Shown here one piece after another: positions 1,831 to 57,872 of a stretch of 64,000 nucleotides of DNA (its first letter is position 1; each line of letters opens with the position of its first letter). Position numbers and translations under genes: made by a program. The notes below the pieces were generated by a model. The model saw only the letters and a program-made list of their open reading frames with translations. It was not told the origin of the DNA and did no database searches. The DNA is taken from the NCBI RefSeq assembly GCF_026210795.1, contig NC_089429.1, positions 6,262,001 through 6,326,000 of the forward strand, written 5' to 3'. Source of the stretch: Rhizophagus irregularis. Taxonomy: Eukaryota.

Positions 1831-2612
1831 TAACTGTATTATTATGCATGCCACTCAAGGTCATGTCTAATTTTAAGTTATTTTATAAATGTTTAGTTTT
1901 TTAAATAAATAACGTGTTGTAACCAATATTTTAATCCCACCTTCTAATAGGATATTTATGTTTTACTATATGATGAATTATTCAGCATATTTTATTTTTA
2001 ATTTACCTACCATGTTGAACTACCGACAAAACATGGTAAATCATAAGAAGAAAAGAAAATATTATAACTTTTTTTTTAAAAAAAATGAATACATTTTTTT
2101 ATTTGATTAATATTTTAATACTATCTTTAAACTTAAAAATTCTTTGGTGATAAATATTCCACTTATAAACTCATTGTATCTAAAAATACATCTCTTGATC
2201 GATTGGTTTTGGGTAATAAATTTTCGTATCAACGTTTCGATTCTAACGGGTTGCGATCCCTTTCTTTCGTCGATCAATATATAAGGTATCTTCAAATATA
2301 AAATTGCGCTTTGCGCCTATATAATTTTAATTTTTAGAATCTCGCATTTTTTTAACGTACCCATATTCACTAATCACAAAATTCTTCTTTTACAGTATTA
2401 GATTGAACTTTTGAAGATATATTAGAAAATCTTTACAAACATCATTTGAAATAAGTAATTCAATGAGAATAAGTGCCATGATTTATTTATTTAATACATG
2501 GTTGAACCAAAAGAGTGATATTTTAGAATTATTAGAATATCAATTTTTTCTAAATCATTTTATTTTTATAATTTTTTTATTATTATCGTATTATTATTCA
2601 GAATTCTGTATA

Positions 2613-2796
2613 CAGTCAGAACTCGATATACCGATATTCGATATACCGATACATTATTAAAAACTTGATATACCGATAAAATTTTACATTCCCACTATAT
2701 GTGAGGACATATAAATATCGGTATAATTTGATATAACGATATTTTTTAAATTTTTTCTTATGAGTCCCGACATATCGTTATATAAAGGTTTGACTG
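2613..2796. mobile_element. Tc1/pogo-like MITE
   Basis: TA|CAGTCAGAACTCGATATACCGATA ... TATCGTTATATAAAGGTTTGACTG|TA: CAGTC termini, TA target duplication, internal GATATACCGATA repeats. Confidence 0.7.
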
Positions 2797-3447
2797 TACG
2801 TTATAATTACTTGATGATTATGATTACAGGACAATTACTGGACAATTACTGAATGATTATGATTATAGGACGATTCCAGGACAATTACCGGACAAAATTG
2901 TCTTTTTTATTAGATGACCTGCAGGGGGTAGCACAATTTTGAAAAGCGCAATAATAAAATTATATATAAAAGTTTTTAAAAAATCAGGAGCCAACGATCG
3001 ATAGGTGTTCATCACCATGAAAATGAATTCGTTGACGGATACCTTTTGATTTTTTTCTATCAATATAATCCCTCGGTTCACGTTCAATTACAGGTGTATT
3101 TTCGAAGAAAAAATTATATCGATTCTGAATAATGTTTTTATTTTTTGTTCTTATTTCTCGTCAACTATTTTGCGCATGCTACTGCAGTTCTTTTTATTCA
3201 ATGTTGTATTCTGGCTTTTCACCATTCGGAGAATGCAAAATCATTCACATATTGTTCATATACAGTAGGTTGGAATAAGGTAATTCTTGGAATATTTTGG
3301 CTCGCGAAAATATGTTTGTTTCATTGTAAAGTAACGCGACCGTAATGAAAAAAAATACGAAAATATTTATATTTAGGATTTAAATTTGATGTGAAAAGTT
3401 GCAAGTAGGCTTTTTTACTGTGTTTTAACCTTAACCGAAACTTGTAA

Positions 3448-3866
3448 CACTATTGTGACATTTTTGCAAATGACGTTGTGTGCCAGGTTCGTGGCACAGC
3501 AAATTTTAAAAAAAACATCATTAAGGATTTTTTCTTTGACATGAAGTTTTTAAACTTATATAGTAGATGTAATTTCACCTGCTCTGCAAGTTTAATTAGG
3601 ATTCGGAAGAAGGTTACGAATGCCGATTTTGACTTTACATATAAATGATTGATTCTACCGTCTTTGTCGATCGTTTCCAAAAATGGATTTCGTGAAAGAA
3701 AAATTTTAAGTATCATTATTGACTTATTTAACAAAATTCGCCTAAGTAAACTTAAAAATTACATCTTTCTAGTAATTTTTGAAGTTAAAAAAATTCTCTC
3801 TGATTATCGTTGCGCCACAATTTGCTGGCTGCGCACGAACCTGTCAGGCTGTCACACAAAAAGGTG
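3448..3866. mobile_element. Degenerate CAC...GTG inverted-repeat element
   Basis: CAGGTTCGTG..CAGCAAATT at the left mirrors AATTTGCTG..CACGAACCTG at the right; TGTGACA/TGTCACA; no TSD recovered. Confidence 0.35.
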
Positions 3867-3959
3867 CTAAATTACTTATAATATGACTGACGCAGAAAAT
3901 TTACATCATATATGTGACGTCATTTAGGGCTAATTATGTTTTTAATATCGGGGAATATT

Positions 3960-6530
3960 TTAAATTGCCGGAAATTAATTTCCGGTTAAATAAACAAGTA
4001 CTATAAAAATTCCGGAAATTAACTGGATTTTTTATATTACCATTATTAATATTCCGGCGGGATATAAAAGATAAACATTTACCGGGTTTATTATATCAGT
4101 CACGTGATATAATACTAATAATCGATCTTTTTTTACTAAACTTTTTTTTTAATGAAACTTCCTCTCCCTTTTCTTTCGTTCCCCCCTTTCCCTCTTTTTT
4201 TCGTTCTTTCCTTCCTCTCTTTCGTTTCCCTCGCCTTTTCTTTCGTTTTCTCCTCTCTTCAACCTTCCCTTTCACCTAAATTAAACGCTTCAAAGTGAAA
4301 AAAATAAGTCTAATTTTTTTCAAGTTACGTTCTCGTTTCAGCGAATCTCTTGTGGAAATGTAAAATTTTTGGGTTTTCTAAGTAATTTTTTTTTCGTTTT
4401 TAGTACTAATCTTCCTTTTTTTATAGGGTTTGTCTTCGTTCCGGCCTTCAGACGCTCGGGAATTTTGGTTACTTTTTAGATGGCCAAAAAACGCGTTGAA
4501 ATTCGGTAAGAGGAGGGATTTTTTTTTTTCTATTTTTAAAAAAAAATTTTTGGGAAGAGGCGTATTTTTCATTGACAAAACGCTTATTAACGTTTCGGGG
4601 GTTTTTTTTAGATGGTTTTCTGGATCTCTTATCGGGATTCCGGTTAGACATTAATTTTTTTTTATTAATTTTTTATTTTTAACGAACTTTACTAAAAGTT
4701 TAGTTCCTTTTTCTTTTTTTAGGCGGATCTTTCAGGCCGGACGTTAGTAAACTTCTTTTTTTTAAATATTTTTATTTTAACGAAACTGTTACTAACGTTT
4801 CATTTTTTTCTTTTTGTAGACAGTCAATCCTTTGGAATATTTGGACGTGTGCGGATAGTTTTTGACTTCTGTAAATAATTCTTTCAACTAAACTTCTAAC
4901 GTTTCATAAGCTACCGCCTACCGGTCTTCGGACGCGTGGAAAACTCGGTAAGGGGTTTACTTTTGTTAATTCTTTTAATGAAACGATCGCTAACGTTTCG
5001 TTTATTTTCTTTTTAGACTTCGGAGCATTTGACGCGTAAGGTACGGGGAAATGGTGAGTTTCGCAACTAAAAAGTTAGTCTTTATATTTATTTTTATATT
5101 TATTTTTTTTTTAAAAAAAAAATAGAAACGTTTATTAACTTCTTATTTTTTACTTTTTCTGTAGATTTGAGTTCGAGATACTGTACCTTAAGTTCGGAAC
5201 GCCGATTTGGTATGTTTCTCGAAACTTCAATTTTTTAGTAATTTAATTAGAAACGTTTATTAACGTTTATATATATTATTTTTGTAGGGTTTCGGTCTTT
5301 GGTTGATGCGTGTTCCGATTCGTACGATTATACTTTCCTTTAAATTAAGACTTTCTTCTAAGAGTTAAATTATAATATTGTAGCCGCCTGTATAATATCT
5401 TTTTATACATGATTTTGATATTTTTGATTTAAAATAACTCAATTAATTAATTTTTTAAGGAAGGTGAAAAGGGTAAGTTTCGTGATGTTCGTTACGAAAC
5501 TTTCATTTTTTTTATAATCTTATTTAATTAAAAACGTTAACGTTTCTATATAATTTTTTTTGTAGGTTAGCGAATTCAATGATAAGCGCAGTCCTATTTA
5601 CAACATATATTACAGTTTTTTCACAATTTAATGGAACTTCTTCTTTTTTTGAATCGGATTATAATCATAGTTTACATTCACCACCACCATTTTCAATTGT
5701 ATTTACCTCTGGAGCTATTGTAGGAGCTGCGCAATCTCTAGTTGCCGCACCATTAGACTCTTTAAAAGTTAGATTTGAAGTAAATGATTTATTAGAGGGA
5801 AAGCACAAAAGCATGTTCGTTTTTGCTAAAACTACTTGGAAAGAATTGGGAGTTGCAAGTATTTATCGTGGAATTGGCTTAACGTTGGTAAAGGTTTGTG
5901 TTAATCAAATTAATTTTATTATTTATGTTTTTATGCTTTTTTTGATAATCTTAATTTTTAATTTATTGATTATATAGGATTCTTTATCTTGTGGATTGTT
6001 TTTTGGAATTTTTGAATTTGTCAAACAACAATGTTATAATGCATAACGCAACGGGTGTTGCGAAACTTTCTTTTCATTAGAAAGAAGCAGATTCTAACGC
6101 TACTTACTTCATTTTTTTTTTGATGTTTCAGAATTTTGTTCTAGAATATTGGATATGGTATGTTTCATAATTGCAAAACTTTTTTAAATTTGAAACGTTT
6201 TCTAACGTTTCTCTATTTTTTTTGTAGTTTTTGGATTTTAGGTTTGGAAAACTGCAATGAGCATCTAGTGTTTTTTTTGGATAATTAGATTAATATAGAT
6301 CTTTAACAATTAACATAGATTTTAATATAGATACTAGTATAGATTAAATAATGTATCTTTTAATTAATAAATAAACCGATTATAAACAATTACTACAATT
6401 AATAAATTTAACGCTATTTAACAAACTATAAGATATCTAATGTACTGATGATTGTTACTAAATTAACCTAATTTAACACATCATCGATAATTTTTATCAT
6501 GTGATCTTTTCATCCCGACAGTCTATCTAT
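3960..6530 (+). other. Intron-array (micro-exon) element, copy 1, with captured gene fragment
   Basis: CCGGTTAAATAAAC motif, TCACGTGA and a pyrimidine tract, then about 10 GT..AG introns (e.g. 4506-4611, 4643-4722, 4743-4819, 4948-5016, 5054-5164, 5210-5287, 5473-5565, 6158-6227), most sharing AAAC(G)..TAACGTTT around the branch point; CpG-rich micro-exons with GGACGCG-like motifs; ends approximate. Confidence 0.6.
5566..6037 (+). pseudogene. Internal fragment of a mitochondrial carrier family (SLC25-type) gene, two partial exons
   Basis: LANSMISAVLFTTY..GAIVGAAQSLVAAPLDSLKVRF (PxDxxKxR carrier signature)..GVASIYRG..LVK, phase-0 intron 5894-5977, then DSLSCGLFFGIFEFVKQQCY; no native N- or C-terminus. 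Confidence 0.8.
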
Positions 6531-8324
6531 TATTGTGAATTTTAAGTGAGAAAGTAAAATATAGAAATAGAATGCTTTTAATAGGATAATTAGGGTCTTC
6601 TATTATAACGTATTTTAACTATTTTAAGGGCAGTGAGCCCATTGAGTAACCCATACCCCTGAAAAGAAAAATGAGAATAATAGCATCTAAACACATGCTT
6701 TTGACCGACAATAATTTATAAAAATTTTAACTTCTTTTAGAACCTAACTTCCTTAAACGTTAATTTAATTTTTTCCACTTTTGTTAAACCTTTCGGTTAA
6801 ATTTATTCCATCACTCTTTTTGGAATTGCGTAACAGGTGATGCACAGAAATCGCAGAAGATAATACTTAAAACTGTTGTATTAATGATTATGTAAATTTT
6901 TTAAATTCTTTCTTTAACCGATTTTTCTTCGAAAGTTCAAATCTATATGAATACGTTTGTGAAGGAAATTACTTGAACCAATATCTGATAAGATTCGTAA
7001 CACGACCAATAGCTAAAATACAATACACTGTATCCCGATTTCATATTTTTTGAAAACATTATAACAAAAATTATACAATATTTATTAAATCAGACACTTT
7101 ATAAAATATGTACCTAAACTTTTTTTTTGATAGTAGTTTTTTATTCTTTATAAAAATTTGAGTTAAAATGTTTCAATGTTACAGTTAAAAATTCTTCATA
7201 TTTCATTATACCCTATCATAACAAATTCTCAATTTCAATCAAAGTTTTTTGTTTATAAATTTAAACAAAGAATTCAATAAAAGAAAAATGGATTTATAAA
7301 AAATGGACAAATTGATAAAATTGAAGTGTGGATAATTAAGCATTGATGCTTCGCCGAATGTATTATTTTTTTCCATGGAGTCAGGCGTTAAATTTGTTGC
7401 AGAAGGTACCCTAATAGAGATAATGGCGCATTTATTTTACTTTTTTTTTCTTCAAATACAATTATGAAATATTGTAACATTTATTATTATTATTATTATT
7501 ATTTGAATGTTCTTTGATCATTTTTTGACGTAACAAGTGAACAAATCGTTCCGTTTCAAATTTTATTTTTCCGATATTTTAATAAAATCTTGAAGTTTAG
7601 CTCAAATTGAATCGGCGTGTGGCTGTCGAAAATTTCTTATAAAAAGGCTCTGAAATTCCTAGCGAATTACAATTAAAATACGCGCAACCAATCTAAATTT
7701 TTATTAATATTTCTAATAATATGGCCCAAAATAGCCTTGATTGGGCCATTAGCATAAATGTTAACGACGATGAACGAGTTATTGATAAACTATTAAAAGT
7801 TCTTATGTTAATATTGATAAACTATTAAAAATTTTTATGTTAATAATTTTTATGATTCATTATTATCATAGAGTTATTACATAAAGAAATTTAATTTATG
7901 GTTCTTTTTATTAAATCTCCTTTAAACTATCGCGCACGCGCTTGATGCACCAAAGTTCTCAAAACATGGTCAACAACCGATTATGGTATTGACCTAACAA
8001 GTGCTTTATAATAACTAGTATATTAATAAAATAATAACTTGTATAACTTGTAAATGATAAATCACACACATTATTTTAGATATGAAATTTTTTTAACACG
8101 TTTAAACTCCCTACTAATTGATATTCGGCTAATTACATAAATTATATGCAATGTGAAGAACTAGGTAAAACCGATGGAATAGATGTATTATATATATACC
8201 TGACCCTCTTAATATTAATCCTGATTCTATATCAAATGTTGAAAAAAAATTCTTAAATATATAGAAGATATACTTTTAAAATTTCCTAAAAATTAATATT
8301 TTTTTTCTAAAAAAAAGAATTTGG

Positions 8325-9179
8325 TAGTGCTCCTAACGGGTCAAGTCGGGTCGGGTTTTGTAGATATGTTGTGCCTCAGATCGATTCTTGCCTCAGATTG
8401 AAGCTCACGCACCTCAGATTGAGATTGTCATCTGACGCACCTCAATTGCTAATAAAAATGTGCTATAATTAAACATCAAAATTTCCAATTTTAATGTATT
8501 TTTAAGTACTAAGTAAACTTATTTATCATTACAATCCTATAATTTCAGATTAATTGGAATCATACTTATTAAATCTTTTCATTTGAAAAATGACTTAAAA
8601 TTTAATGATTTTTCAGATAAAACACAAATATAAACTTCAATATAAATCGGATTTACATAAACATTTCAGGAAACATGTAACTCATTATGGTGCACAAGTT
8701 TGCTTATGTTACAAAAAGTGGTTTAATTAATGAGAAAAAAAGTTTACTTATAACAGACTTTATTGAATGATTCAAATGAGGTGCGTCAGGTGACAATCTC
8801 AATGTGAGGTGCGTGAGCTTCAATCTGAGGCAAGAATCGATCTGAGGCACAACAGATATACCCGACCCGACCAAAGTGAAAAGGTCTTGACTCTAAACCC
8901 GACCCGAGTATAGTTCGACCGGATATCCCGGGTCTAAACCCGAATTTTCAAAGGAAAAAAAATGAGCAACCACCATTTTTTCGGCATTATAATGAATCTT
9001 TAATGAAATTATAATAGATATAATAGATTTGTAATATTATGAAGCTTTGTTATCATTCATTTATTATAATTAATTAGTATTTGTTCAATAACTCGGGTCA
9101 ACCGGGGGTCACCGGGTCATAAAAATTATTGAACCCGACCCGAGCTTTTAAGGGTCGACCCGTTCCGTTAGGAGCACTA
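8325..9179. mobile_element. Non-autonomous hAT element
   Basis: TIR TAGTGCTCCTAACGG / CCGTTAGGAGCACTA, perfect 8-bp TSD GAATTTGG (8317-8324, 9180-9187), subterminal ACCCG/CGGGT repeats. Confidence 0.9.
8367..8854. mobile_element. Ginger-like MITE nested in the hAT element
   Basis: About 80-bp near-perfect TIRs with TGT...ACA termini, internal CCTCAGAT repeats, 4-bp TSD GATA. Confidence 0.85.
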
Positions 9180-19500: not shown

Positions 19501-21035
19501 CGTAAAAGTTAACCAGTATAACAATGGTTCGAACTCTATGCTTGAAAAAAATTGCCAATACTAATAATAAAATATACGTGTGATCTCTTTTCCTTCTTGC
19601 AAGGGCATGGAAACTAATTTTATATATTCTGATCCCCATCCTAAAGTTTGATATTTCGTTTCGTCCCTTCACATAAAATGAACGCATTTTGGTACTTCTA
19701 ACTTTTCTTCTGCCCTTATCAATTTCAGCAGGCAAATTATTGATGCATTGCCATAATTTTTCTGGTACTTTCGCCATTCCAGATTTTTTCGCGTCGATTG
19801 CTTCCATCTAACTTAACAGTGAGGAAGAGTTTCAACCTCGGGTTCTTTTGGATCAAAAATTAATTCGTCTTTGTTTTCTTTGCTGTTTTTATTGAGAAAT
19901 TTAGCAAGCTCAGCGAGCGATTCATTTTTAACAAATTCGTGAATCTAAAAATTAAGTTTTAAAATTAATGTATGCATTAATTTAAGTTTAAAAGGCAAAT
20001 AAGGAAAATTCAAACACCTACTTTATTAGACATGCTAAATTTTTATTGAAACTCAATATTGTTATCAAATTTGTTTGGCCTAGAAACCTCAGTCATTATC
20101 CAGTTCGATCCAATCAGTATATCAGTAGGTTAAACACACCAACAGCTAATAATTCCAATACTTTGTGATTCAACAGAAGACTTCTAAACACGTAATTATA
20201 AAGAAGTCCTCTCGCCTCAAGATCATAAATTATGCAGCTCTTTTGAGGGAACAGTATGAAGCAATTCAGTTGCTTCTTTTCCGTTTTGTGTACAGGGTTA
20301 CAGTATTGTAATGAATAATTCGATAATTTTTTTTTTTAATTTTTCTTTTTCATCACGACACGACTGAAGATGGAAAGATTTGAAGTTAATATTGATTTTT
20401 TTTAAAATTATCTAAACTTTATATTTAATAATAAACTTACTTTTAAGAACTTCGTGAAATGATCGAAATAGTTTAATAGTTTGTCAGTATATCGCTATTC
20501 AGACAACTATAGCTATAATATACTGCTCTTCACCCTTCCTTATTTCTCTCGTCTACAAAGAAAATAAAATACATCAAATAATAATCCTTGATCAACTTCA
20601 TAATAAGAATTTAACGTTTCCTTCCACATCACGTGGTCAACGAATAAATAGGTCGCATGTTGCTCATATCTTCCCCATCTCCTTTAGCTACAAATAGAAT
20701 AGTAATTCTCGCTATACAGTATTTAAACATAACACCTATTTTCCTTCAGTTCTCAAATGCCAATTGTTTACTTCTTAGGATTTTGAATATTACATGATTT
20801 TGGAATATTTCTGCGAAATCAACAGTCATTTCAAAAGTGTTCACAACAACCTATGATATGAAGCCAAGGAAGTAAAGGATAATATTCACAATAGACTTTT
20901 TACTAATAATAACATCAACTCTTCCTGCAAGAAAATACCAATAAAATCAGATCACTTTCTGGTTAAGGTGTTGATATGAAACCATCATAAATGCAAAAAA
21001 AAGTATCAATTACCGTACGAATTCATTCAATCGGG

Positions 21036-23020
21036 GTAATAATTTATTAAACAGATATCATCATTTACCTATTAAAATAATTATAATAAAATTAATAAAT
21101 TAAATAAATAAATAGAGTCCTTTCAATATCTGGCTGTGTTTTAAACATTACCTTAAATTTGATATAAAAAGCTCTATATAATCTTAATTATCCATCATTG
21201 CGAGTAATAATTAGTTTTGGGAAACTAGATTGAACTGATGTCGTGCCAAATGTTAAGAAATGAGCGCCAGTCACAACACATCTTGCTATTTTCTTAGCAC
21301 GTTTAGAATCCTGAGCAAGTACCATATAAATCGTTCTTTAAAGTATTTGTTGCTAAAGTTGGAATTCAGTAGCACTATCTGATTCAAATGATCAAGTTAT
21401 GAAGTAATATCCATATTAAGTTTAAAATGTCATTCGATCGAGGTAATAGTTTTATTAAATAGCTATCATTATTTACCTATCAAAATAATTAATAAATTAA
21501 ATATTATAAAAATAATAAATAGAGTCCTTTCAATATTTGGCTGTATTTTTTATGATTTAAACATTACCTTAAATTTGATGTAAAAAGCTCTATATAATCT
21601 TAATGGATCCATCGTTGCGGGTAATAATTAGTTTTGGAAAACTAGATTGAACTGATGTCGTGCCAAATGCTAAGAAATGAGCGCCAGTCACAACACATTT
21701 TGCTATTTTCTTAGTACGTTTAGGATCCTGAACAAGTATCACATAAATCGATCTTCGAAAGTATTTGTTGCTAGAGTTGGAAATTGGAATTCAGTAGCAC
21801 TATTTGATTCAAATGATAAAGTTGCGAAGTAATATCCATATTAAGTTTAAAATGTCATTCAATCGAGGTAATAGTTTTATTAAATAGCTATCATCATTTA
21901 CCTATTAAAATAATTAATTATAATAATATTAATAAATTAAATATTATAAAAATAAATAAATAGAGTCCTTTCAATATCTCGCTAATTTAAACATTACCTT
22001 AAATTTGAGATAAAATTTCTATATAATCTTAATGATCCATCATTGCGAGTAATTAGTTTTGGAAAACTAGATTGAACTGATGTCGTGCCAAATGCTAAGA
22101 AATGAGCGCAGTCACAACACATCTTGCTATTTCTTAGCACGTTTAGGATCCTGAACAAGTACCACATATATCGATCTTTAAAAGTATTTGTCGCTAAATT
22201 TGGAATTCAGTAATAGTACTATCTGATTCAAATGATTAAGTTTTGAAGTAATTTCTATATTAAGCTAATATTTCATTCAATCGGGGGCCTCATTATATTT
22301 GTTGTTTCTAATATAAGCAAAAATTTCATAGTATATGAAATTTGTTGTAAGCCATAATGATCCGTTACGACAAGATAATAAAGGAATAATTTATAAAGAA
22401 AATCCATTATATAGTAGATACTTTTTTTTTAGTAAGAATTTGCAAATGTAAATCGAAAATTTTTTTAATAAATATTTTGAATTTAAGGGTAAACCAGTTA
22501 TTTGTTGCAGATTTTACAATGGGGTATAACAAATCCTATATAAAAGGTAAAAGTAATTAGAATTAAGTAAAAAAAAACCAGGAAATCCAAAATTGTTACC
22601 TACTTCATTAAAATTGGGAATACCGTTACTTTCAATGTAATATCCATTTCTTTTTACGTAGCTTTCCAAATTTTATGATGAAGATTATTCTAGTAATAGT
22701 TTATTAAATAGCTATCATCATTTACCTATTAAAATAATTATAATAATATTAATAAATTAATATTATAAAAATAAATAAATAGAATAGAATTCTTTCAATA
22801 TCTGGCTGTATATAATTTAAACATTACTTGAAATTTGATGTAGAAAGCTCAAGAAATGGGCGCGAATCACAACACATCTTGCTATCTTCTTTAGCACGTT
22901 TAGGATCCCGAACAAGTACCACACAAATCGTTCTTTAAAAGTATTTGTTGCTGAAGTTGGAATTTCAATAATAGCACTATCTGATTCAAATGAAGTAATT
23001 TCTATATTAAGTTTAAAATA
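21036..23020 (-). repeat. Tandem array of about 410-425 bp exon+intron units (3 full, 1 partial), decayed transposase-like fragment
   Basis: Units start near 21036, 21443, 21868 and 22694 (GTAATAGTTTTATTAAATAGCTATCATCATTTACC); minus strand has AAG|GTAATG..TAATAG| introns and reads ESDSATEFQ..VQDPKRAKKIARCVVTGAHFLAFG. Confidence 0.85.
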
Positions 23021-26279: not shown

Positions 26280-28110
26280 CAGTTTCACAATCACACGATC
26301 CATATCCTGAAAAGAATGAACGTTATCTCATATAAGAATATCATCTGTTCCAAAAGATGCTAAACCTAAAAGTAAAGAGAAAGTAACATTAATGAAATGT
26401 TTCTAGGTTATCTTCCCAAATTCATACTTCCCAAGAAAAGTCTATCCTACCTATAAAAAAATATTCCAAGTCCAATTCGTTATACCTAAAGAAAAAAATC
26501 AATCAACGCTCATCCCGGTAAATATACTTGTTAACTGTTAGTTCCAAAAGAACTTGCCTCTTTTCGGTACCTACAAATAGAAAAGAAAAAGTAGTTAGTT
26601 TCTTCAAAGCAAAATTAAAAAAAAAACCTTAAAAAAAGGTTTCAAAACGAACCGTTTCAAAACTTACCGATCGATCCTACCATCAAAGTTCAAGGAAGCC
26701 GAAAACTACAAAAAAAAAGATAAAAAAAATGAATAAAAAAATATAATAAAAAAATATAATAATTATTTTAATGAAATTTCGGAATTTTTTTTTCGAAACT
26801 CACCTGAGAATCCGGTCTCACGCGTCCAGGTTCTGGAAAAACTATGGCTTGAAACTTCTTTTGGAAGCTCTAGAACGTGTACAGAGTGTAGAAGGTGTCT
26901 CATATGTAATTGATCCAAAAGCCAAAGGATGCTCTTTATGGTACTATATACTCTTGATCCTACTACTCTAGATGGTTTATTTACACATCTTGAGTAAAAT
27001 TGTGGACAATATTCGTGGTGAAAGTACAAAAAGACATTGGATTATTTTTGATGGTGACGTAGATTCTGAATGGGTAGAAAGTTATGTCACTAAACGTTTG
27101 GTTATTGGTGTTATTTGGAGATTTCGTACGTGGAATTACAATTGTACCGCATGCATCTCCTGGATCATCTGTTATTGACTCCTCCCGACTGTCTAAAAAA
27201 AGAAGAAAACGAAATATTAGTGAACGTTTCATTAGACGCGTTATCCTGTACGAGGAAAAGATTACCGAGTTTAAGACCAAAGAATAGCGACTTTGTGATC
27301 GAGCTTTTGAAGTTAAAAAACGAGAACGCGAATATCAGACAAGGAACTTAAATATAGTTTTCCATCGAATTCCCACGCGTCTCCCGGCCATCTAAAAAAA
27401 AAAAGAAAATGAAACGTTAACGAACGTTTCACTAAAATAATTTATTTAAAATAAAGAAAACTCTACCCACTGAAATCTATGTCCAAAAGAACTGAAGAAT
27501 CGCCTACAAAGAAAAAAACAATTGTTAGTGAACAGTTCGTTAAATGAATAAATTAAAGTAAAAATACAACCACACTAAATCCAGCACGTTCAAGAAACAG
27601 TAATTACAATTTCATTAAAACAAAAAAATTTAAAAAAATTTAGAAAGAAGTAGTCTGAAACCTAAAGAAAGAAAATAAATGAACGTTAATAAAAAAACCG
27701 AAACAAAAATTAAGATAATGAAAAAAATTCGAATACTAACTTTCTTTTCCAAAGAGAATCATCAAAAGAGAAAAATCGCTGAAACATAAAAAAAGAAGAG
27801 TTGAAGACCTAAAAAAGAGAAGACGAAAGTTAATAAAGAAAATGACAAAAACAAAATAGAGAAGGAACAGGCGAACACAACAATTAAAAGAAAAAAACTG
27901 AAAAACTTACGAAATTTCGCGTCCAGGAGACCAAGAGAGAGCGAAAGAACCACTCAAAAAAACAAAAAATAGTCCGGCGTTTTGATAAGGATTTTTTCAA
28001 CAGAAAGAATGAGAAGCGGAAAAGGAGAAAGAAAGACGAAGCAAAAGGAACGAAGGAAAGTAAGGGAAAGAAATAGTAGTTTATTTAACGGATATTTTTA
28101 GCAAATTCGA
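26280..28110 (-). other. Intron-array (micro-exon) element, copy 2, with captured fragments
   Basis: Minus-strand CCGTTAAATAAAC (about 28090) and pyrimidine tract, repeated GT(A/G)AG donors and TnAG acceptors, GAAACGTT..TAACGTTTC motifs; exon TAGATGGCCGGGAGACGCGTGGGAATTCG is homologous to copy-1 TAGATGGCCAAAAAACGCGTTGAAATTCG. Confidence 0.55.
26827..27080 (+). pseudogene. Cytoplasmic dynein heavy chain AAA2 fragment
   Basis: [72 protein letters not shown], across frameshifts; isolated piece of about 250 bp. Confidence 0.9.
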
Positions 28111-40483: not shown

Positions 40484-41047
40484 TTAATTTTTTAAAGCTC
40501 TTCTAGTTGTACCGATGGATCTTCTTCTCTTTGAATCCCAGCAATCAGGATATTTCTTAATTCTAACATTGACGCAATACAAGTAATTGTTTCCAGCGTC
40601 ATCATCCCATCTGAATCTCATTACACAATCTTTGTTATCACATTCATCGTGTGGTACTTCAACAAATGCAGTGAATAAGCCTTTTTCCATACCACATGGG
40701 CCTAAGTTCTCGAAAGTTTTGAAATCTTTATCATATTTATCACCATACCGAGATAATTGCATTAAACAGTCTCCACCATGAGTAATAGTTCTATTATAGG
40801 CGATTAAAATTTTCTCACCAGGTTTGTATGTTGTAACTGGGCCTGGACTATCACCGGCAATACCACAGGGAAATTCCTTGGTTGGGTTGGAAACCTTAGC
40901 GATTATATCGGTAACATTTTGACCATATGGAAGTCTGGGGGTAGGGCTAAGAAGAATACCATGAGCTGAAACTCGTCCAACGAGTCCAATCAAAAGCGTG
41001 AAGACAAGAACGAAGTTGATAGCACCAGAGATTTTGGATTGAACCAT
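40484..41047 (-). CDS. Secreted LPMO-like (AA11-like) histidine-brace protein, 187 aa
   Basis: ATG at 41047; 28-aa hydrophobic signal peptide ending VSA, mature N-terminal His (HGILLSPTPR), FPCG, THGGDC, RFRW, NYLYCVNV; intronless; basic C-terminal tail. Confidence 0.85.
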   Translation of the reverse strand: MVQSKISGAINFVLVFTLLIGLVGRVSAHGILLSPTPRLPYGQNVTDIIAKVSNPTKEFPCGIAGDSPGPVTTYKPGEKILIAYNRTITHGGDCLMQLSRYGDKYDKDFKTFENLGPCGMEKGLFTAFVEVPHDECDNKDCVMRFRWDDDAGNNYLYCVNVRIKKYPDCWDSKRRRSIGTTRRALKN

Positions 41048-42914
41048 TGTAAGATTTAGTAACAAATATTTTTCTTTGAAAGTTTTTTTTGTCGTATTAG
41101 AGAACAGTTTTTAATAAGTAAATTTGAATTCTATTATTTTTAAAATAGAGATCAGTGAATATTTTGTTTCTTCAAAGTCAGAAATTTTTAGGGATTTAAA
41201 TATCTTTTCAGAAGACAATCTGTTAGCCAATTTGATTTGTTTGCATTGTGTAGTGCTCAAGAATTTTTTTCCTTCAAAGTTCCGGCGCGTATTTAGTATG
41301 TATTTTCCCCTTCAAAGTTTCAGCGCGTTATTTTTGATTAATTTGTATATTAATTTAAACAATTAAAAAATTTTTTTCATTCTAGAAAAGTTATAATACA
41401 AATATAAAAACTTTGTTTTTTTTATTTATATTCGTTTTTAATTATTATTTGTGTTATGCAGATAATCGGTATCACATATATGAAACGATCGAAATCGAAA
41501 ATTTTCAACTTAAAAAAAAAACAAACATGTGAAACGGAATAATAGTTGCATTTCTAGAATTCCGACAAATTGTTGTTGATCCAATTTTAAAAATAGATTT
41601 TGGTGTGATAATTATCACGGGACTTTTAATTTCGTAACGGGAATTGAATTGATTGACAAAATATTTATTCTTTTCTTTAGCAATGGAAATAAATTAACAA
41701 AACGTTTTAATTATAAAAATTTTCTTTGTAGGTACTAATTTTAGAGTTCTAAAAATTGAACTTTATTGTATATTCAATCTCTAATTATGGAAATAATTAT
41801 ACGGATAAAATTTTTACGACAATATTATTATATTTTAATTCCTATTACAAAGAATTTATTTAAAAAAAGAAAAATAATTTATAAGTATTTTATTATTATC
41901 TATATAATTATACTTATAATAATATCAGAACTAAACGTCCATTGATAAATATTTCAATTAACATCTAATTCATAGTCATGAAACAGTTAGGAAAAAATGT
42001 TAGCCTTTATGTTCGATGAATGCAAGATTAATTAAAGTATATGTGATTTTTTTAATTATTGTTAAAAAAAGGGACGGTTACACAAAAAAGAATTTTAAAG
42101 AAAAAAATATATTATATATTTTATAATATTTTTATTACAAAACTATACCTAACGCTAATATATCAATCGATTGATTTTTTATTAGGGAAATTTTATTTAA
42201 TTGCCGATCCGTCTAAGCTGTATAAAATACATATAGCGAGTAAAATCTAACGCGCGTACAATGCAAAGTCATTTTTTTCCTTAGTAAAGTTATAATTATT
42301 TTAACATATTATTTTTCCTTGGTTTTTTTTTACATATATCATATGATTTTTATTTTATATAATGGGTTATTCCCTTCCCTAGTATTATGTAGTTTTCTCA
42401 CAATTGTGCTAAATTTAACCTTTAATTAACCCCCGAAAAACTGCCGATTTTAGACAGATCGGCAATTAAACATGTGCTAAAAAAGGATAATTTTTGATTT
42501 GTCATTGTATGATCTTCGAATATCTTAAATAGCATGATTTACTAAGACAATACTTACAATACTTCTTTATTATTAGTACTTCCTTTTACTATTTTAATTT
42601 ACTCTAAATTTAAGAATATCTAAAAATGGATTTGTCTTTTAATCCTAAATTAATTTCATTTTTCATTCGTGAATTCAAATCTTTTTTAGTCTATATAATT
42701 AAAAAAATTCTGTAACGTTTATGAATTGTGTACCGGGCGGTCGGAAATATTTGATCTTTAATCTGTATTATTATGGTTCATTTGATCGGTAAATATAACA
42801 TTAATACCGAATTGCTGATCGTTGCTTATTTTGTTACTGAAATTAAAAAAAAATTAATTAGCCCGTGCTTTGATGTTTTATCTCCCGTGCTTGATGTTTT
42901 TATCCATCTGTGCT

Positions 42915-43790
42915 TGATATTTTTGTCCGTCTGTGCTTGATGTTTTTTATCCAACTTTGTTTGATTAATCCTTGTCATAAATTAGTTTTTTTGTCAGCAC
43001 GTACAGCCGTACAGGGTTGACATTTTGTCGATCACATGTTTTTTAAGTTTAGCGTAGTTTTTAAAATTTTTTTTTTTTTATATTTTACACGAAGAATATT
43101 TTTTTTATCGTTATGATATTTTCGTTAAAAAATTTTATTTGATAGAAATTTCATTGGAGAATTTTATTTATCATATTTTTTTTTTTGACATATACCTAAT
43201 TTGTTGGAACAATTTTTTTAACAGGAGAGATTTTTTATTAATTTATTTATTTTTTTTTTGTAGAAAATTCTTTGGAGAATTTTTTAATAGGGAAGATTTT
43301 TTTATTTGATGGATAATTTCATTAGAAAAAGAATTTTTTTTTTAATAGGAGGGAGTTTTCCTTGATAAAAAATTTCTTTTGGGATTTTTTTTAATAGGTG
43401 AAAGTATTTTTTGACGGAGAATTTTATTAGAGAATTTTTTTAATAGGGGATTGTTTTTGATAGAGAACTTCATTAAAGAATTTTTTTTTAATAAGGAAAA
43501 TATTTTTTTTGATGGAAGATTTTTGTTAGAAATTTTTCTTTAATCGGGGATATTTTTTTTGATTGAGAATTTCATTAGAGAATTGTTTGTTGAAAATTTT
43601 TTTTATTTTTGATGGAGAATTTTGTTTAGAAATCTTTATTAAAAAAAAAATTTCAATCGATACCCTTAAGAATTTCATTAGAGATCTTTTTTTTTATAAA
43701 AAATTGATTGAAAATATATTGGAAAATTTTTTATTGAATTTTACAATTTTAAAGAACTTTTATTTTTTTTTTAATTTTATTCTTAGTTTT
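42915..43790 (+). repeat. About 850-bp AT-rich minisatellite-containing repeat, copy A
   Basis: Built from about 50-bp TTTTAATAGG..TTTTGATAGAGAATTTCATTAGAGAA units; near-identical in inverted orientation to 57875-58700. Confidence 0.85.
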
Positions 43791-45739
43791 ATTTTATTTA
43801 TTTTATAGTACTGTATTTTCTTTGTTTAATTAATATAATTAATATTCTTTTTGATCTATATTAGCATACTATTTAATTTTGTCAATTTTATCTTGATAAT
43901 TATTTTTTTTAAATTCATTATTAGTTTTCAGTCTTGGTATTTCTTATTTCTTTAATTTTAATTCTTTTTAGTATTTTTTCTTTGTTTTATTTGTTTTATT
44001 TTAATAATTTCAGATTATATAATAAGAAATTTATCAATGAAATTAAGAAAATATTAAAATTAAAAAAAAAATGTTAAAAATTAAAGTTAAAAATGGAATC
44101 AAAAAATACCAAATTAATGTTAACATATACTTTTTTAAAGAGTTTTCCTTTTTTTCATTAGTTATATTAAATAATTGGCATAAAAACATTTTTTGAAAAA
44201 CTACTATTTAAAATTTTAAATACCTTATACATAAATAAAGATTATACATGAATAAAAATTTATTATTAATTTTATATTTTTTTATTAAATATATATTTTG
44301 ATTTTTCATTAATATTTATAATTATTATTTCTTGCCATTTATTTTTTTTAATCCACGTGAATACTGAATACGTTCACGATAAAAATTACTATTCGTGGGC
44401 CAGAAGTAATTCTAAAAGAATCATAAACAAAACTGCCATTTAAGACAACGCCACCCTGTCGAAATAAACAGATCGGTGGAGGGCACGAACAAACCTACCC
44501 ACCCACTACGCACTTAGGTATAAAGGCAAAAAGGACAATATAACGAAAAGCGAACAGAATAGAGTAATAAACCAAAATAGAAACATTCTATCTAATCATA
44601 TATTCGTATTTTTCTTTCATCAATCAATCGATGCAATACAGTATGTAAATCCTGCCATGTATAGTATGTTTTATTCTGAGAAGGTCCGTCATTGTTGTTT
44701 TGTGTGATGGTAGAGTATCCTAATCGTGGACCAGAGTCGGTGGGTAGGTAACAGTTGGTGCTGCTGTTTCAAACAGCAGATACGTAAGAGTTGTCACTTA
44801 TAGTACTAGTAATAGTTTCTGATTAGACGGAGGAGTCTGTCATAAAAATATGGTAGGATTGTTAATAATTTCTTGGTCTTTCTGAGAGATATAGTAACTC
44901 ACATTAGTGATGTTATGTGTAACGTCTTCAATAAAAGTATGTCTAGGTACGTGGTGTTGTTCGTAAAAAGACATAGCAACTCCATATGCATAACTGTATT
45001 GTGGGATTGAACTGACGTCATAATCTTATAATCAAAAAGGTTAATATTGTAGGTGTGTTTATAATACACTCGAGAATCACCTGGAGTACCAGACGGTATA
45101 GAAGGTAAAGACTTTTTCTTTTTGTTACGCTTTGCACAGTCTTGTCTGTTTAAGATCTGCTGGTAAGCGGAAAGATGTGTCAAGGTGGGAAATATAGCCT
45201 ATATGTCTATGTTCGTATTTCGTCCATACATGATGTATTTGTTCCAAATCTTTTCCAGGAGTTTGCGTGAGGACAGGCTTGTTTTGGTGATTCAAAGTGT
45301 TCCTTGTAAGTCAATTCCATCTTTCAATTTTTTTGGGTGAACATATAACACCAAATTTTAGTTTAATTATTATTTATTATAATCTAGTAGTAATTATTTA
45401 AAATATAGTTCAAATATTGTCTGATAGAATTCTAAACATCTTTATTTTTATTAAAAAATTATTCTGTATTATATTTCAGCAAATATTAAAACTAGAACAA
45501 TAAAATTATTACCATTAGATTCATCTATAAATTTAATAGTATAAACTTATTGAATTTGGATTATTGGTTAGCTAAAAAGCAGGAGTATGTAGTTTAAAAT
45601 TTTGAATGAAATTCCAAAGATTATATCTTATCTAGAGCTCATATTTTCCTGGCACTTATAAAAAGACAAATACACAAAGACATTAGCTAAGTTTAGTTAA
45701 AATATATATTAAAATAAAAAAATAAATTAATTAAAATGA

Positions 45740-45960
45740 ATAAAAAAAATTAATTTTGATGTTTACCTTTGAAATTCTGTACAGAAACTGTCCAGAAAGC
45801 CGTAAAACTACAAAAGAAGCAAATGCTAGTTAACGTTTCATTTAAAAAGATAACAAAAGAGAAATATTTTAAAAATACCTTCAAAAAAGTTTACTTTGAA
45901 ATAGAAGACCAGCCTTCAGCCTCTGGATCTAAAAAACAAAAAGTATAAAAGCAAAAATTT
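45740..45960 (-). other. Relic of the intron-array element family
   Basis: Minus strand: TTTTAG|exon|GTATTT..GAAACGTTAACTAGC..TTTGTAG|exon with GGAC|GTAAAC. Confidence 0.4.
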
Positions 45961-49489: not shown

Positions 49490-51985
49490 GTTAGCATAAT
49501 TTGAATTTACTATGTATTTGAATTGGATATTTAACATTCCAGTTATCAAAAAATAGTTTTAAGCATCCCATATAAGTTAAATAAACAAACCAATTGGTGA
49601 TGATCTTGCTAATATTTCTAAACACTTACTAGTATTCCAACGATGACCAGAAATTCTAATAATAAATAATCCATATATTGACAATTAATTAATTTTAATT
49701 TCTAACTTAAGATATTTAAGTTTTTGGACATTTTGTATCCATCTAATTCAGTAATTCTAAACTTTTAAATTAATAAATATGATAGAAAATATGTGGCAAG
49801 TTATATATTAATTGCATATTTAATTAACAATTTTCAAGAGCATTATCTATAGTAGAATAACTGAAGAATTCCTGAGTTTTAATTAGTCTAGTAACTCCAT
49901 CATTGTTACCATTCTTATTAATAATAAGTTCCAATTCTTTAACTGATTTAACTGATTTGAAAATTTCTTTATATTCGTATAACATCAATAATTGAAAAGC
50001 AATGCTTAGTAAATTTTGTATTTTTCATTAATAAAAAGACGAGTAATTTCATTTTAAGCAATCAACACTCCAACTAACTCTTTGGTTACATTTAAAATTT
50101 AAATGTTTACAAAAATTAACATAATTAAATAAAGGTTTTTTGTATTAATTAATTGTAAAATCAACACCTTGACTGTTCATATTATTTGTGAAATAATTAC
50201 ATCTAGTAGGAATTTTCCTTTTGAGTAATTTAATATTTCCAAGGATTTCTCCACAGAATTGGAATAGTAATCTCACACTGAGTTTTTTTACATATTTTTT
50301 ATTAACTAAAAGGCAATAATGAAGACCCTATAAGAAATATGTATACGGAAAGGATACGTTTTGTATACATTTTATGTACGTTTCTATAGTTTCCGTATAC
50401 AAATTCCGTATATTTAATAAGCAATTCATTTTTGAACATTTTTTAAAAAAACTAATGTATACGGAAAAAATTAATCATACGGAATGTATACGGAATTTTT
50501 AAACTTAATATTTTTAGAAAATAATTTTACAAAAATCTCGTATCATAACACGAGATCACGTGATTGTTTATTGTTTTGTTATGATACGTTTTTTGTTTTT
50601 TATATAAACCCTTACTTTGATGAGTTTGATCTTTCTGTCTTTCCCTTCCTTCTCTTTTCTCTTGTCTTATTTTTGTTATTTTTTCTAAATTTTTCTTCTT
50701 TTTTCGTCACCCCCCCTATTAAAAAAAAATTTTTTTTTCGTACCTCACTTTAAAATTTTTTTTTTCATCACTCTCCTTTAAAAAAAAATTTTTTTTTCGT
50801 CACTCCCTTAAAAAAAAAAATTTTTTTTTGATTTTATTCTTTTATTCCCACTATTCCCACACTTCTTTTTTTTTAAAAAAAATTTCTTCTTTCTATTTCT
50901 ATTTCCTCTTTATAAAAATTTTTTATTTTTCTAACTTTGACGTCCTCCCTTTAAAAAAAAAATTTTTTTTTTAACTTTCCTAACTTCGTTACCCTCTTTT
51001 TAAAAAAATATTTTTTTTTGATTTATTCTTTATTCCCCTTTCTTTTTTATTTATATACTGTATATCCCTTTTTTTATTTCATAGGCCAGCAGATTTTTTT
51101 TTGTGAGAAGATTCAGTTTCTTTTTTCTTTTTTGTAGATCAGTTTGGGAGTCCTTTCCTTTTTGTAGGATTGTTTAGGATTTTTTTCTTTTTTTAGGTCA
51201 GTTCAAATTTTCTTTTTTTTTTTTTTGTAAGTTGGGTTCAGATTCTTTTCTTTTTGTAGGTTGTTTCAGTTTTGTTGCTTCAGAGTCTTCTTTTTTTGTA
51301 GGTCAGTTTTGGATTTATTTTGTTGTTTTGGTTTCTTTTTCATCAGATGCTTCATAATTCTTTTCATTTATGTAGGTCAGACATTCTGGAGTTCTCTTTC
51401 TTTTTTTGTAGGAATGCTGACCTTTGGTGACTTGGACGATTGCAGATACTATATGAAGGGGGGTTTTGTTTCCAATTAAGTTAGACGTTCTTATGTTTCT
51501 TTTTTTTGTTTTTTTTTTAGGTTGTTTGACTCCAAATGAACCTGAACTTATAGATAATTTTGGTTGCAATAGGTGGTTTTAATAAGGAGGGAATTTTCAT
51601 AATGTATTTGTATTTTGTTTATTTTTTATTTTTTATTTAATTTAATAAAGTAAAATTAGATTTATGTAAATATATTATAGTAAACTGTAATACAAATAGT
51701 AAATTCAGTGACCAAATCGTATAAATTTCGTGATAAAATCAGTGATCAAATCATGTAAATTCCATATGAATTCCGTGCAAATTCCGTATCCAAACCATAT
51801 TTTTAGTGATACGGAATTGTGCATTTTTCCGTATCCTATTATGATACGTTATTTCTAAGGAAAAAAAATCGTATAAAAACTTTATAAAAAACGTATCCCG
51901 ATTTTTTTATAGGGAGAGTATTTTTATCATTATGTAACTCTTTGAAAAATATTAAATAAAGAAAATCTCTGTTTAATTAGAACAT
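49490..51985 (-). pseudogene. F-box-like/LRR paralog pseudogene split by a CMC-like element
   Basis: MF*LNRDFLYLIFFKELHNDKNT[element]LHYCLLVNK..CEITIPILWRNPW ... EILARSSPIGLF..LKLFFDNW; resembles 53732-55177. Confidence 0.75.
50326..51914. mobile_element. Non-autonomous CMC/CACTA-like element (1.6 kb)
   Basis: CCCTATAA...TTATAGGG termini, 3-bp TSD AGA, many ATACGGAA/TTCCGTAT subterminal repeats at both ends. Confidence 0.85.
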
Positions 51986-56435: not shown

Positions 56436-57872
56436 TAAGTGTGCATAGCTCGCAAAAGCTCGAGCTGGCTCGCCTACAAAGTAATAAAATAAAAATTAAT
56501 GATTCAGATTGGTTACTAGTTACTACGGTTTCGTGTCGGTCATATGACTTACCGATATTCTGATTTACGCTGTAATGCCAGAGTGAATTTATTAATGTGG
56601 GCGCAGTTTTATAGTGTATAAAATTTTTTGTGATTTAAAATTGTGGAATGTTACAAATGTAACATCCGAAAGGACGTTAAACGTTAAACTAAATAATTTG
56701 GGATTTGTGTATTTGTTTATATTCAGATTTTGGGAATACATGATTTGAATAGTATTTGAATAATTAAATATCAGGAACCAATGATAGGTAGTTTATACTT
56801 CAATGAAGAGGATTATAAAAGGAGTAATATTTGACTTGATGAAATTAGGATACGAATTTTGGGAATTAATTTTTGATATTTAGTTGTATTAAAACAAGCA
56901 TATTATTATATTTATTTGCATTACTAATAAAATATTATTTGTTAAGACTAAGGTGGCAACGTGATTTATCACGGGTACAACAGTTTACCGATTCGATCAG
57001 TCAATTTTTATATAAAAAAAAAATTTTTTTTTTACCGATCTTTTTTTAAATAATAATTTATTCATCATTATTATTTAAAAAGATGACGGAAATGGGAGAG
57101 CCATCGAAATGAAGCAAGAACAGCCTTTCATTGGAGTTATGCGGTAAGTAGTTTAATCTATGGTTATGAATTGCATTATGAAATAACACCGACGCATTTT
57201 TTTTATTTTGTCCTTTCCTTGGAGTTATACGGTAAGAAGTGTAATGTATGGACAGTATTGTTATGAAATTGCATTATGGAACAACACTACGCAATTTTTT
57301 TTTATTTTTTAGTTCTTCGGCCTTTCCTCGGTAAGTAATGTAATGTATGGATAGTATGGTTATGAAATTGCGTTATGGAACCCACTAACGCATTATTTTT
57401 TTATTTTTCAGGTTTCCGGCTAGTGGAATAATTAACCTTAACCCTCTCACGAGGATTTTTTGAATATAAATCTGGAGCATCTTCACCTTCTTTATAATCA
57501 GCAAGAATTGCCGCACATGGGTTGGTATAGTTTTAGAAGTGTGTGGTTGTATAATAGCATTTGAAACAATACTAACGCCAATTTTCTTTTATTTTTTTAG
57601 GTTTAGGTTTCCGGCTATGGAATATGCGGTAGGTGTTGTTTGGTGAGTGTGTGGCTGTGTAATGGTGTTATAAAACATCATTAACGCCATTTCTCTCTTT
57701 TTTTTGAGGCAAAACTTAAGTGAGCCAGGATTTATCATGGCTCGGCTTGGCTCAAAAAGCTTGAGCTAATATTTGCCGTGGCTCAGTTCATTGCGGACTC
57801 AGCTCTCTTAATTTATGCCCTGGCTCAGCTCGTGCTAGCTTATGGGGAGCTTTAACTACTAGCAAACCACTA
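56436..57872. mobile_element. Probable hAT-like element containing an intron array
   Basis: GGCTCG/GAGCT subterminal repeats at 56445-56472 and 57720-57850; ...CACTA right end; left TIR and TSD not resolved. Confidence 0.4.
57134..57710 (+). repeat. Five tandemly duplicated introns with micro-exons
   Basis: Donors at 57144, 57232, 57331, about 57521-57525 and 57629; shared TATGGTTATGAAATTGCATTATG..CTAACGC..TnAG; shared exons GGAGTTATRCG, CCTTTCCT, GTTTCCGGCTA. Confidence 0.75.

What the first reader, a model, noticed from the sequence alone, without database searches (positions are those of the whole stretch)
3960..6530. Intron-array elements that carry host-gene fragments inside their micro-exons (candidate undescribed gene-capture / small-RNA system)
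Seen: a promoter-like head (CCGGTTAAATAAAC, TCACGTGA, pyrimidine tract) followed by about 10 mutually similar introns separated by 20-80 nt CpG-rich exons with no long unspliced ORF. A mitochondrial carrier fragment begins exactly after an acceptor (TGTAG|, 5566) and the array resumes after it. A homologous copy lies at 26.3-28.1 kb and an unrelated array at 57.1-57.7 kb; both also hold foreign coding DNA in exon position, so the pieces would be retained in a spliced RNA. Established: Pack-MULEs and Helitrons capture gene fragments; intron-rich transcripts on stalled spliceosomes seed siRNA in Cryptococcus (SCANR); AM fungi have expanded Argonaute families. Inference: these could be mobile spliced lncRNA cassettes that sample host genes and yield chimeric transcripts or trans-acting small RNAs.
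Basis: partly seen in the sequence, partly recalled or inferred. Interest (0 to 1): 0.85.

Follow-up and report, generated by a model that had tools for sequence, protein, structure and literature searches.

The report
Intron-array transposon ends carrying gene fragments
In a mycorrhizal fungus, a run of nine look-alike introns is spliced into a likely non-coding RNA that carries a decaying piece of a host gene, and related arrays sit at inward-facing DNA-transposon ends, so this is likely a gene-capturing transposon relic of unusual design; any small-RNA role is untested.

Summary
The window is Rhizophagus irregularis. RNA reads from three studies splice 10 GT..AG introns at 4.13-6.3 kb: 9 array introns and 1 host intron. 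The RNA's only long ORF lies inside a captured mitochondrial-carrier fragment, which looks unconstrained (6 non-synonymous, 2 synonymous changes). The locus is shared by several strains and R. diaphanus. Array B holds a frameshifted dynein piece, antisense. A metagenome scan found 17 of 18 loci with such arrays. One has inward-facing arrays on both sides of a hAT transposase. Filled and empty alleles show inserts with short microhomology, one in an exon and one in an intron. A related array in the window lies between TIRs with a 3-bp target duplication. Palindromes cover branch points (69/115 versus 2/28 controls), but with no RNA-wobble signature. Best reading: intron-array ends of DNA transposons that capture host DNA by break repair; locus A would be an immobile relic. 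Corrections: B shares only the intron unit, C is related rather than unrelated, and C's coding cargo is unconfirmed. Small RNAs were not tested.

The parts
3982..4129 (+). Promoter-like head of array A (GTTAAATAAAC at 3985, TCACGTGA at 4100); promoter function inferred
   Evidence: read depth begins about 4128
4130..5565 (+). Array A 5' part: pyrimidine-rich first exon, 8 spliced array introns (67-111 nt), micro-exons; one array-type intron relic (about 4856-4900) stays in the exon
   Evidence: joints, coordinates; X8 contig spans 4826-4946 unspliced
5307..5391 (.). Second insert in exon 5288-5472, shared with another expressed locus; identity and orientation unknown
   Evidence: reads of 2 runs (X22, X24) match 5307-5378 with 5 substitutions and run on in other sequence on both sides
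5566..6044 (+). Captured mitochondrial-carrier fragment (about residues 100-230 of the 354-aa parent), sense, with the parent's own intron 5894-5977, which is spliced
   Evidence: (PF00153)
6045..6400 (+). Array A 3' part: unspliced array-type relic (about 6057-6131), spliced intron 6158-6227, last exon; 3' end approximate
26300..28099 (-). Array B: same intron unit and GTTAAATAAAC head (28089); splicing predicted only
26843..27085 (+). Frameshifted cytoplasmic dynein heavy chain fragment, antisense to array B, inside a predicted 389-nt exon (27192-26804, read by eye)
   Evidence: E 8.3e-14; E 0.0012, collinear; the middle piece gave no hit
45560..45960 (-). Array D: degenerate array remnant
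   Evidence: (73% over 139 nt to L001); CpG o/e 0.34
50326..51914 (+). Element E: TIRs CCCTATAAGAA / CCCTATAAAAA, 3-bp target duplication AGA, subterminal ATACGG repeats, TCACGTGA head (50556), pyrimidine tract and an acceptor-rich array at about 51.05-51.55 kb facing inward; no cargo identified
   Evidence: (0 of 200 shuffles give such a TIR+TSD); no BLASTN match of its array to the fetched loci at E 1e-6, so kinship rests on architecture
57100..57710 (+). Array C: C-type stem introns, 108-nt long exon 57413-57520 of unknown origin; splicing predicted only

Best explanation
Locus A is a spliced, polyadenylated RNA made of tandem intron-plus-micro-exon units with a captured host-gene piece, and it is likely an immobile relic of a DNA-transposon end whose palindrome-rich array likely picked up host DNA during break repair. 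Steps: (1) shown for L010 and element E, inferred for A, B and C: such arrays lie at the inward-facing ends of cut-and-paste transposons, behind their own promoter-like head; (2) inferred: arrays grow by tandem duplication of one intron+exon unit, whose CpG palindromes (AACGTT over the branch point, TTCGAA at the donor) make fragile sites; (3) shown: host DNA entered at the DNA level (host introns kept in A and L005; filled versus empty alleles with 3-5-nt microhomology), which fits gap-filling/template switching (inferred); (4) shown for A: the array is transcribed and spliced, so cargo in an exon ends up in the mature RNA; (5) shown on small numbers: the cargo drifts without protein constraint; (6) inferred: the RNA is mainly a by-product of the element's end design, and any silencing of parent genes would be incidental.
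For: L010: zf-BED (E 2e-8) and Dimer_Tnp_hAT (E 1.4e-6) exons lie between two arrays that are inverted copies of each other (87% over 188 nt) and both face inward; none of 3 inner TIR candidates has a target duplication. Element E has TIR + 3-bp TSD, 0 of 200 shuffles. Repeated subterminal-type motifs lie beside arrays in L014 (ATCCGAT x8), L001, L004, L009 and downstream of C. Filled/empty pairs: L005 vs L015 (232-nt insert in an exon, two collinear UBC4/5 E2 pieces, E 0.07 and 0.11, with an intron-like spacer) and L017 vs L018 (209-nt insert inside an intron). Carrier cargo versus parent reads: 6 non-synonymous and 2 synonymous changes in 393 nt, pN/pS 0.93, all six derived relative to two outgroup proteins. 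The dynein cargo is frameshifted. Cargo orientation is mixed: sense (carrier, UBC), antisense (dynein). Palindromes are strand-neutral: non-Watson-Crick pairs G-U 10 vs A-C 24; sense strand more stable in 43, antisense in 55 of 115. Gap-filling with microhomology is described for Pack-TIRs (PMC8277862, passages).
Against: No TIR+TSD pair of expected type was found around A, B, C or D; only weak 2-3-bp chance-like pairs appeared. A is shared by several strains and R. diaphanus, so its own mobility is not shown. L010's contig ends inside both arrays, so its termini are unseen. E's array has acceptor-like units but no GGTRAG donor and no BLASTN link to the other arrays. The genome is about 50% repeats (PMC11075540), so a transposon neighbour is a cheap coincidence. 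No genome was held, so copies, termini and cargo could not be counted genome-wide. A relic model does not explain why 9 splice-competent introns persist in a non-coding RNA shared between species. The contigs' taxonomy was not tested.
Confidence: 0.55

Rival explanations
1. A domesticated, spliceosome-coupled small-RNA system: intron arrays with hairpin-covered branch points and donors would hold transcripts on the spliceosome, as in Cryptococcus SCANR, so that captured host fragments yield siRNAs that tune their parent genes in trans.
For: A is transcribed and spliced in 3 studies and shared with a sister species. Branch regions fold at dG <= -4 in 69 of 115 array segments vs 2 of 28 control segments; 61 of 93 donor segments fold at <= -5. 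Dynein cargo is antisense. 41% of R. irregularis sRNA loci come from unannotated regions (PMC8647823). Captured gene pieces seed siRNAs against donor genes in maize (review PMC13317346). SCANR is described in PMC7763443.
Against: No small-RNA data examined. Mature spliced joints are readily seen. No wobble signature (G-U 10, A-C 24; about 6 of the A-C come from a one-base bulge, and the core CpG census shows 2 wobble vs 5 mismatch). Donor folding exceeds shuffles (z <= -2) in only 30 of 93. Only 3 of A's 9 introns reach dG <= -4. One insert is intronic, and the cargo genes (carrier, dynein, UBC) share no evident theme.
Confidence: 0.22
2. The arrays are host lncRNA or pseudogene loci built by tandem duplication of an intron unit, independent of transposons; gene fragments and neighbouring transposons accumulated there by ordinary break repair in a repeat-rich compartment.
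For: No termini for A-D; A is fixed across strains; arrays abut ends of what look like several different transposon types, which a single element family would not predict.
Against: L010's two arrays are inverted copies around one transposase, not one array split by an insertion. E has an array-like core inside intact termini.
Confidence: 0.2
3. An ordinary protein-coding gene with many micro-exons (public annotations call it Ort1p or a hypothetical carrier).
For: Several public gene models span the locus (P0001, P0005, P0029, P0030, P0032). The spliced RNA holds a 127-aa ATG ORF.
Against: The models disagree in frame and exons. The read-supported RNA has stops in all frames before the cargo and 7 upstream ATGs. 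pN/pS is 0.93. The N-terminal peptide finds only R. irregularis models of this same locus (4 of 11 candidates). An intact 354-aa parent exists.
Confidence: 0.03

Closest known systems
Pack-TYPE / Pack-TIR non-autonomous DNA transposons (Pack-MULE, Pack-CACTA, Pack-hAT; PMC8903248, PMC8277862)
   Same: Host gene fragments captured at DNA level, microhomology at breakpoints, chimeric and often non-coding transcripts, association with TIR elements.
   Different: The element body here is a tandem array of spliceosomal introns with micro-exons (9 spliced in A) and palindromes over the splice signals. TIR/TSD were not found for the cargo-bearing copies A and B. The passages read describe plants and animals, not AM fungi.
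Introners / introner-like elements (PMC9860276, PMC12130899)
   Same: Families of mutually similar spliceosomal introns linked to transposons, many from TIR DNA elements.
   Different: Introners are dispersed single insertions into host genes. Here the similar introns are tandem, inside a likely non-coding transcript, and no per-intron insertion into a host gene was seen. Neither main text names Rhizophagus or Glomeromycotina (supplements not read).
SCANR, stalled-spliceosome siRNA pathway of Cryptococcus neoformans (review PMC7763443)
   Same: Intron-containing, transposon-linked transcripts with possibly suboptimal splice signals.
   Different: Stalling and siRNA output are untested here; reads show completed splicing.
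MULE-linked gene expansions and unannotated small-RNA loci of R. irregularis (PMC8647823)
   Same: Same species; Pack-MULE-like capture was suggested there; 41% of sRNA loci are unannotated.
   Different: The passages read do not describe intron arrays or spliced fragment-bearing RNAs.

Membership tests
Pack-TYPE DNA transposon | Contains fragments of host coding genes | tested here: met
   carrier in A, dynein in B, UBC-like in L005 (weak)
Pack-TYPE DNA transposon | No transposase of its own | tested here: met
   no long ORF other than cargo in A or B
Pack-TYPE DNA transposon | TIRs and a target-site duplication around the cargo-bearing copy | tested here: not met
   none of expected type for A, B, C, D; met only for E, which has no identified cargo. 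A and B are therefore not filed as members, only as working like them
Pack-TYPE DNA transposon | Several dispersed copies with different TSDs | not testable with these tools
   no genome held; reads show at least one paralogue sharing A's 5' exons
Pack-TYPE DNA transposon | Related autonomous element with the same ends | tested here: inconclusive
   L010 has a hAT transposase between inverted arrays, but its termini are off the contig, its intactness was not tested and it comes from another sample
Introner | Mutually similar spliced introns | tested here: met
Introner | Each intron is a dispersed insertion in a host gene | tested here: not met
   all seen in tandem arrays; exact 24-letter motif in the window only in A and B; control introns of genes mostly lack the palindrome
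SCANR-type siRNA source | Spliceosome stalling / poor intron removal | tested here: inconclusive
   spliced joints common; intronic reads mostly carry paralogue variants, so retention in A cannot be measured
SCANR-type siRNA source | siRNAs mapping to the transcript, dependent on RNAi factors | not testable with these tools
   no small-RNA run was listed
Helitron | 5' TC, 3' hairpin + CTRR, A|T insertion site (recalled) | not tested
   ends of A and B are undefined; the TIR context of L010 and E points elsewhere
Known structured ncRNA (snoRNA host, tRNA) | Rfam or ARAGORN match | tested here: not met
   0 Rfam hits at gathering score in the window; 5 sub-threshold hits in 10 loci; 0 tRNAs in 15 loci

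The most novel reading that the evidence does not exclude
AM fungi carry an undescribed class of intron-array RNA cassettes, derived from DNA-transposon ends, that trap pieces of host genes and route them through the spliceosome into Argonaute-loaded small RNAs: a heritable, piRNA-cluster-like memory that tunes host genes in trans and accounts for part of the unannotated small-RNA loci and orphan gene models of these fungi.
Probability: 0.2. Interest if true: 0.9.

Novelty: new variant of a known kind. Interest (0 to 1): 0.64.

Why it matters
About two-thirds of R. irregularis repeats are unclassified (PMC11075540) and 41% of its small-RNA loci map to unannotated DNA (PMC8647823). A recognisable, spliced intron-array unit at transposon ends gives a searchable signature for part of that unexplained DNA. 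It also shows that some public 'orphan' or truncated gene models (at least five for this locus) are chimeric artefacts. It offers a fungal case of Pack-type capture with filled and empty alleles. It makes one question directly testable with existing small-RNA and long-read data: do intron-dense transcripts feed, or escape, RNAi in these fungi? I found no description of this architecture in 9 literature searches of an open-access library; subscription papers and supplements were not seen.

Tried and rejected
No whole genome was held, so no genome-wide count. No indexed RNA holder was listed; raw RNA runs of the same species label were laid instead. Rfam and tRNA scans were negative, including a tRNA-arm-like insert seen by eye in L003/L005/L015/L017/L018. 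TIR/TSD scans around A-D were negative. RNA-structure selection on the hairpins was tested and not supported; a few double compensatory stems exist but tandem copying or palindrome correction can make them. C's long exon: no match in PDB (best E 0.64), Pfam or the protein database (5 candidates, none scored). A protein search for paralogous arrays through the array-derived peptide returned only this locus. L004's insert matched only 2 unnamed metagenome proteins; the gene beside L011's array had no Atlas hit at 0.9 or more. L002 is a chance motif match in an ordinary coding region. L002, L012, L013 and L016 were left out of the hairpin counts (non-array or redundant). The hairpin counts are biased upward because loci were fetched by a hairpin motif and units are related by duplication; the 28 controls are predicted acceptors, 18 from one gene. 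Four look-ups of earlier findings returned nothing.

Full report
Organism and setting. The carrier fragment is 100% identical to proteins named Rhizophagus irregularis, and the window is AT-rich with BTB/TLD, F-box-like and HMG genes. No whole genome was held, so family evidence comes from reads, public protein models and one metagenome scan.

Array A is real and spliced. I laid four runs (two poly(A) raw-read runs of one study, one raw-read run of a second, contigs of a third) on 3700-6900; 265, 240, 126 and 113 records were laid. Depth starts at about 4128 and ends by about 6330-6480. Ten GT..AG joints define nine array introns of 67-111 nt and one host intron. The libraries look unstranded, so the + strand is inferred from the splice sites. 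Two further array-type intron relics stay inside exons. The spliced RNA has stops in all frames before the cargo, seven upstream ATGs and a longest ORF of 127 aa inside the cargo. Public gene models of the locus disagree with each other and with the reads.

The cargo of A. Exons 5566-5893 and 5978-6044 match residues about 100-230 of a 354-aa fungal mitochondrial carrier. The parent's intron came along and is spliced, so capture was from DNA. A second read class differs at 8 positions and leaves the window at 6044, continuing as the full-length R. irregularis protein P0036 does; I take these as parent-gene reads. Six differences are non-synonymous and two synonymous (pN/pS 0.93; small numbers), and all six are derived in the window copy. 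A second insert at about 5307-5391 is shared with another expressed locus of unknown nature. Truncated models ending at the same cargo end are on record for several R. irregularis strains, and an R. diaphanus model matches five array exon pieces and the cargo. The locus is therefore older than the species split and not shown to move. Reads also reveal a paralogue that shares parts of A's first two exons and then diverges (55, 33 and 4 reads).

B, C and two more arrays. B carries a frameshifted dynein heavy chain piece on the strand opposite the array. B resembles A only in intron 3' ends and an 11-nt head motif. C's long exon is not shown to be coding, and C is tied to the family through L004. 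A decayed array D lies at 45.6-46.0 kb. Element E (50326-51914) has TIRs, a 3-bp TSD, subterminal repeats, the window's only other TCACGTGA and an inward acceptor-rich array. Its superfamily is uncertain: CCC ends with a 3-bp TSD suggest CMC/CACTA from recall, but PMC8903248 gives other TSD lengths for plant CACTA. Splicing of B-E was not tested with reads.

The family. An exact 24-letter motif of the branch region occurs at 4 sites in the window with up to 2 mismatches, all in A and B, against 0 in 100 shuffles. In metagenome contigs it returned 18 loci, 17 of them intron arrays. By overlap they fall into about nine groups (my grouping). They are 24-36% GC; a Glomeromycotina origin is my inference, not a test. 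L010 holds a multi-exon hAT transposase between two arrays that are inverted copies and face inward. L005 versus L015 shows a 232-nt insert in an exon, with two collinear but individually weak UBC4/5 matches. L017 versus L018 shows a 209-nt insert inside an intron's donor palindrome. Both have 3-5-nt microhomology at the junction, read from the printed flanks. L004 and L006 hold further unidentified inserts.

The unit's anatomy. AACGTT and TTCGAA occur at 6.7 and 5.0 per kb in arrays versus 0.2 and 0.3 in the rest of the window. An inverted repeat encloses the branch point: dG <= -4 in 69 of 115 unique array segments versus 2 of 28 control segments (biased as noted under Tried and rejected). 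In A itself only 3 of 9 introns reach that value. If RNA pairing were selected, G-U should outnumber A-C; the count is 10 versus 24, and the antisense strand folds as well as the sense strand. The palindromes thus look like a DNA-level feature, although they would still fold in RNA.

Mechanism. I commit to: transposon-end intron arrays, amplified by tandem duplication, broken at palindromes, repaired by template switching that copies in host DNA, and transcribed inward into spliced RNAs (0.55). Shown: splicing and non-coding character of A at the sequence level, DNA-level capture, drift of the cargo, filled/empty alleles, transposon context for L010 and E. Inferred: transposon origin of A, B and C, the repair route, and lack of host function. 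A dedicated small-RNA system (0.22) is not excluded, and the persistence of nine working introns in a shared non-coding locus is unexplained. A transposon-independent host locus (0.20) also remains; an ordinary protein gene is nearly excluded (0.03).

Literature seen. Passages only, by term search: 10.1101/2022.10.19.511543, PMC8647823, PMC11075540, PMC8277862, PMC13317346, PMC10799480, PMC7763443, PMC13465315, PMC9860276, PMC12130899, PMC8903248. All other papers were seen as search listings only. None of the passages or listings describes tandem intron arrays in transposon ends of AM fungi (searches). Supplements were not read. The small-RNA locus tables of PMC8647823 and the Manley preprint, the curated repeat library of PMC11075540 and the introner species lists could already hold these loci.

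Verdict. A real, read-validated and apparently undescribed architecture that works like Pack-type capture but fails the TIR/TSD membership test for the cargo-bearing copies. Novelty: new variant of a known kind. Interest 0.64.

Noticed in passing
window 50326-51914: Complete non-autonomous TIR element with a 3-bp TSD and an inward acceptor-rich array sharing A's TCACGTGA head; CpG o/e of the array is only 0.16.
   Followed up: partly
window 45560-45960 (-): Decayed fourth array, CpG-depleted (o/e 0.34).
   Followed up: partly
L010 1-4276: hAT transposase gene flanked by inverted, inward-facing intron arrays; a tandem repeat of about 600 bp lies between the upstream array and the start codon.
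   Followed up: partly
proteins P0042 and P0047 (one R. irregularis strain): A cargo-type model and a model running into the parent's C-terminus share the same unusual substitutions: possible gene conversion between cargo and parent, or misassembly.
   Followed up: no
window about 3490-3515 and 3820-3850: Short inverted repeat pair upstream of A, probably a separate MITE-like element.
   Followed up: partly
window 2611-2798 and 8349-8872: Two small inverted-repeat elements (27-nt arms at 81%; 100-nt arms at 92%) near A.
   Followed up: no
window 43101-43770 and 57880-58574: Two dispersed copies (73% over 748 nt, opposite strands) of an internally repetitive AT-rich sequence; one abuts array C.
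   Followed up: no
window 21023-23019: Tandem repeat with units of about 420 bp at 85% identity.
   Followed up: no
L003, L005, L015, L017, L018: A shared insert of about 60 nt inside acceptor-only tandem units, with a tRNA T-arm-like hairpin seen by eye; ARAGORN and Rfam negative.
   Followed up: partly
L013 and L018 distal ends: The array runs into a minisatellite, and L013 ends in a hAT-like terminus (motif recalled, not tested).
   Followed up: no
window 40484-41110 (-): 208-aa ORF that looks like a secreted cysteine-rich protein by eye, with no Pfam hit.
   Followed up: no
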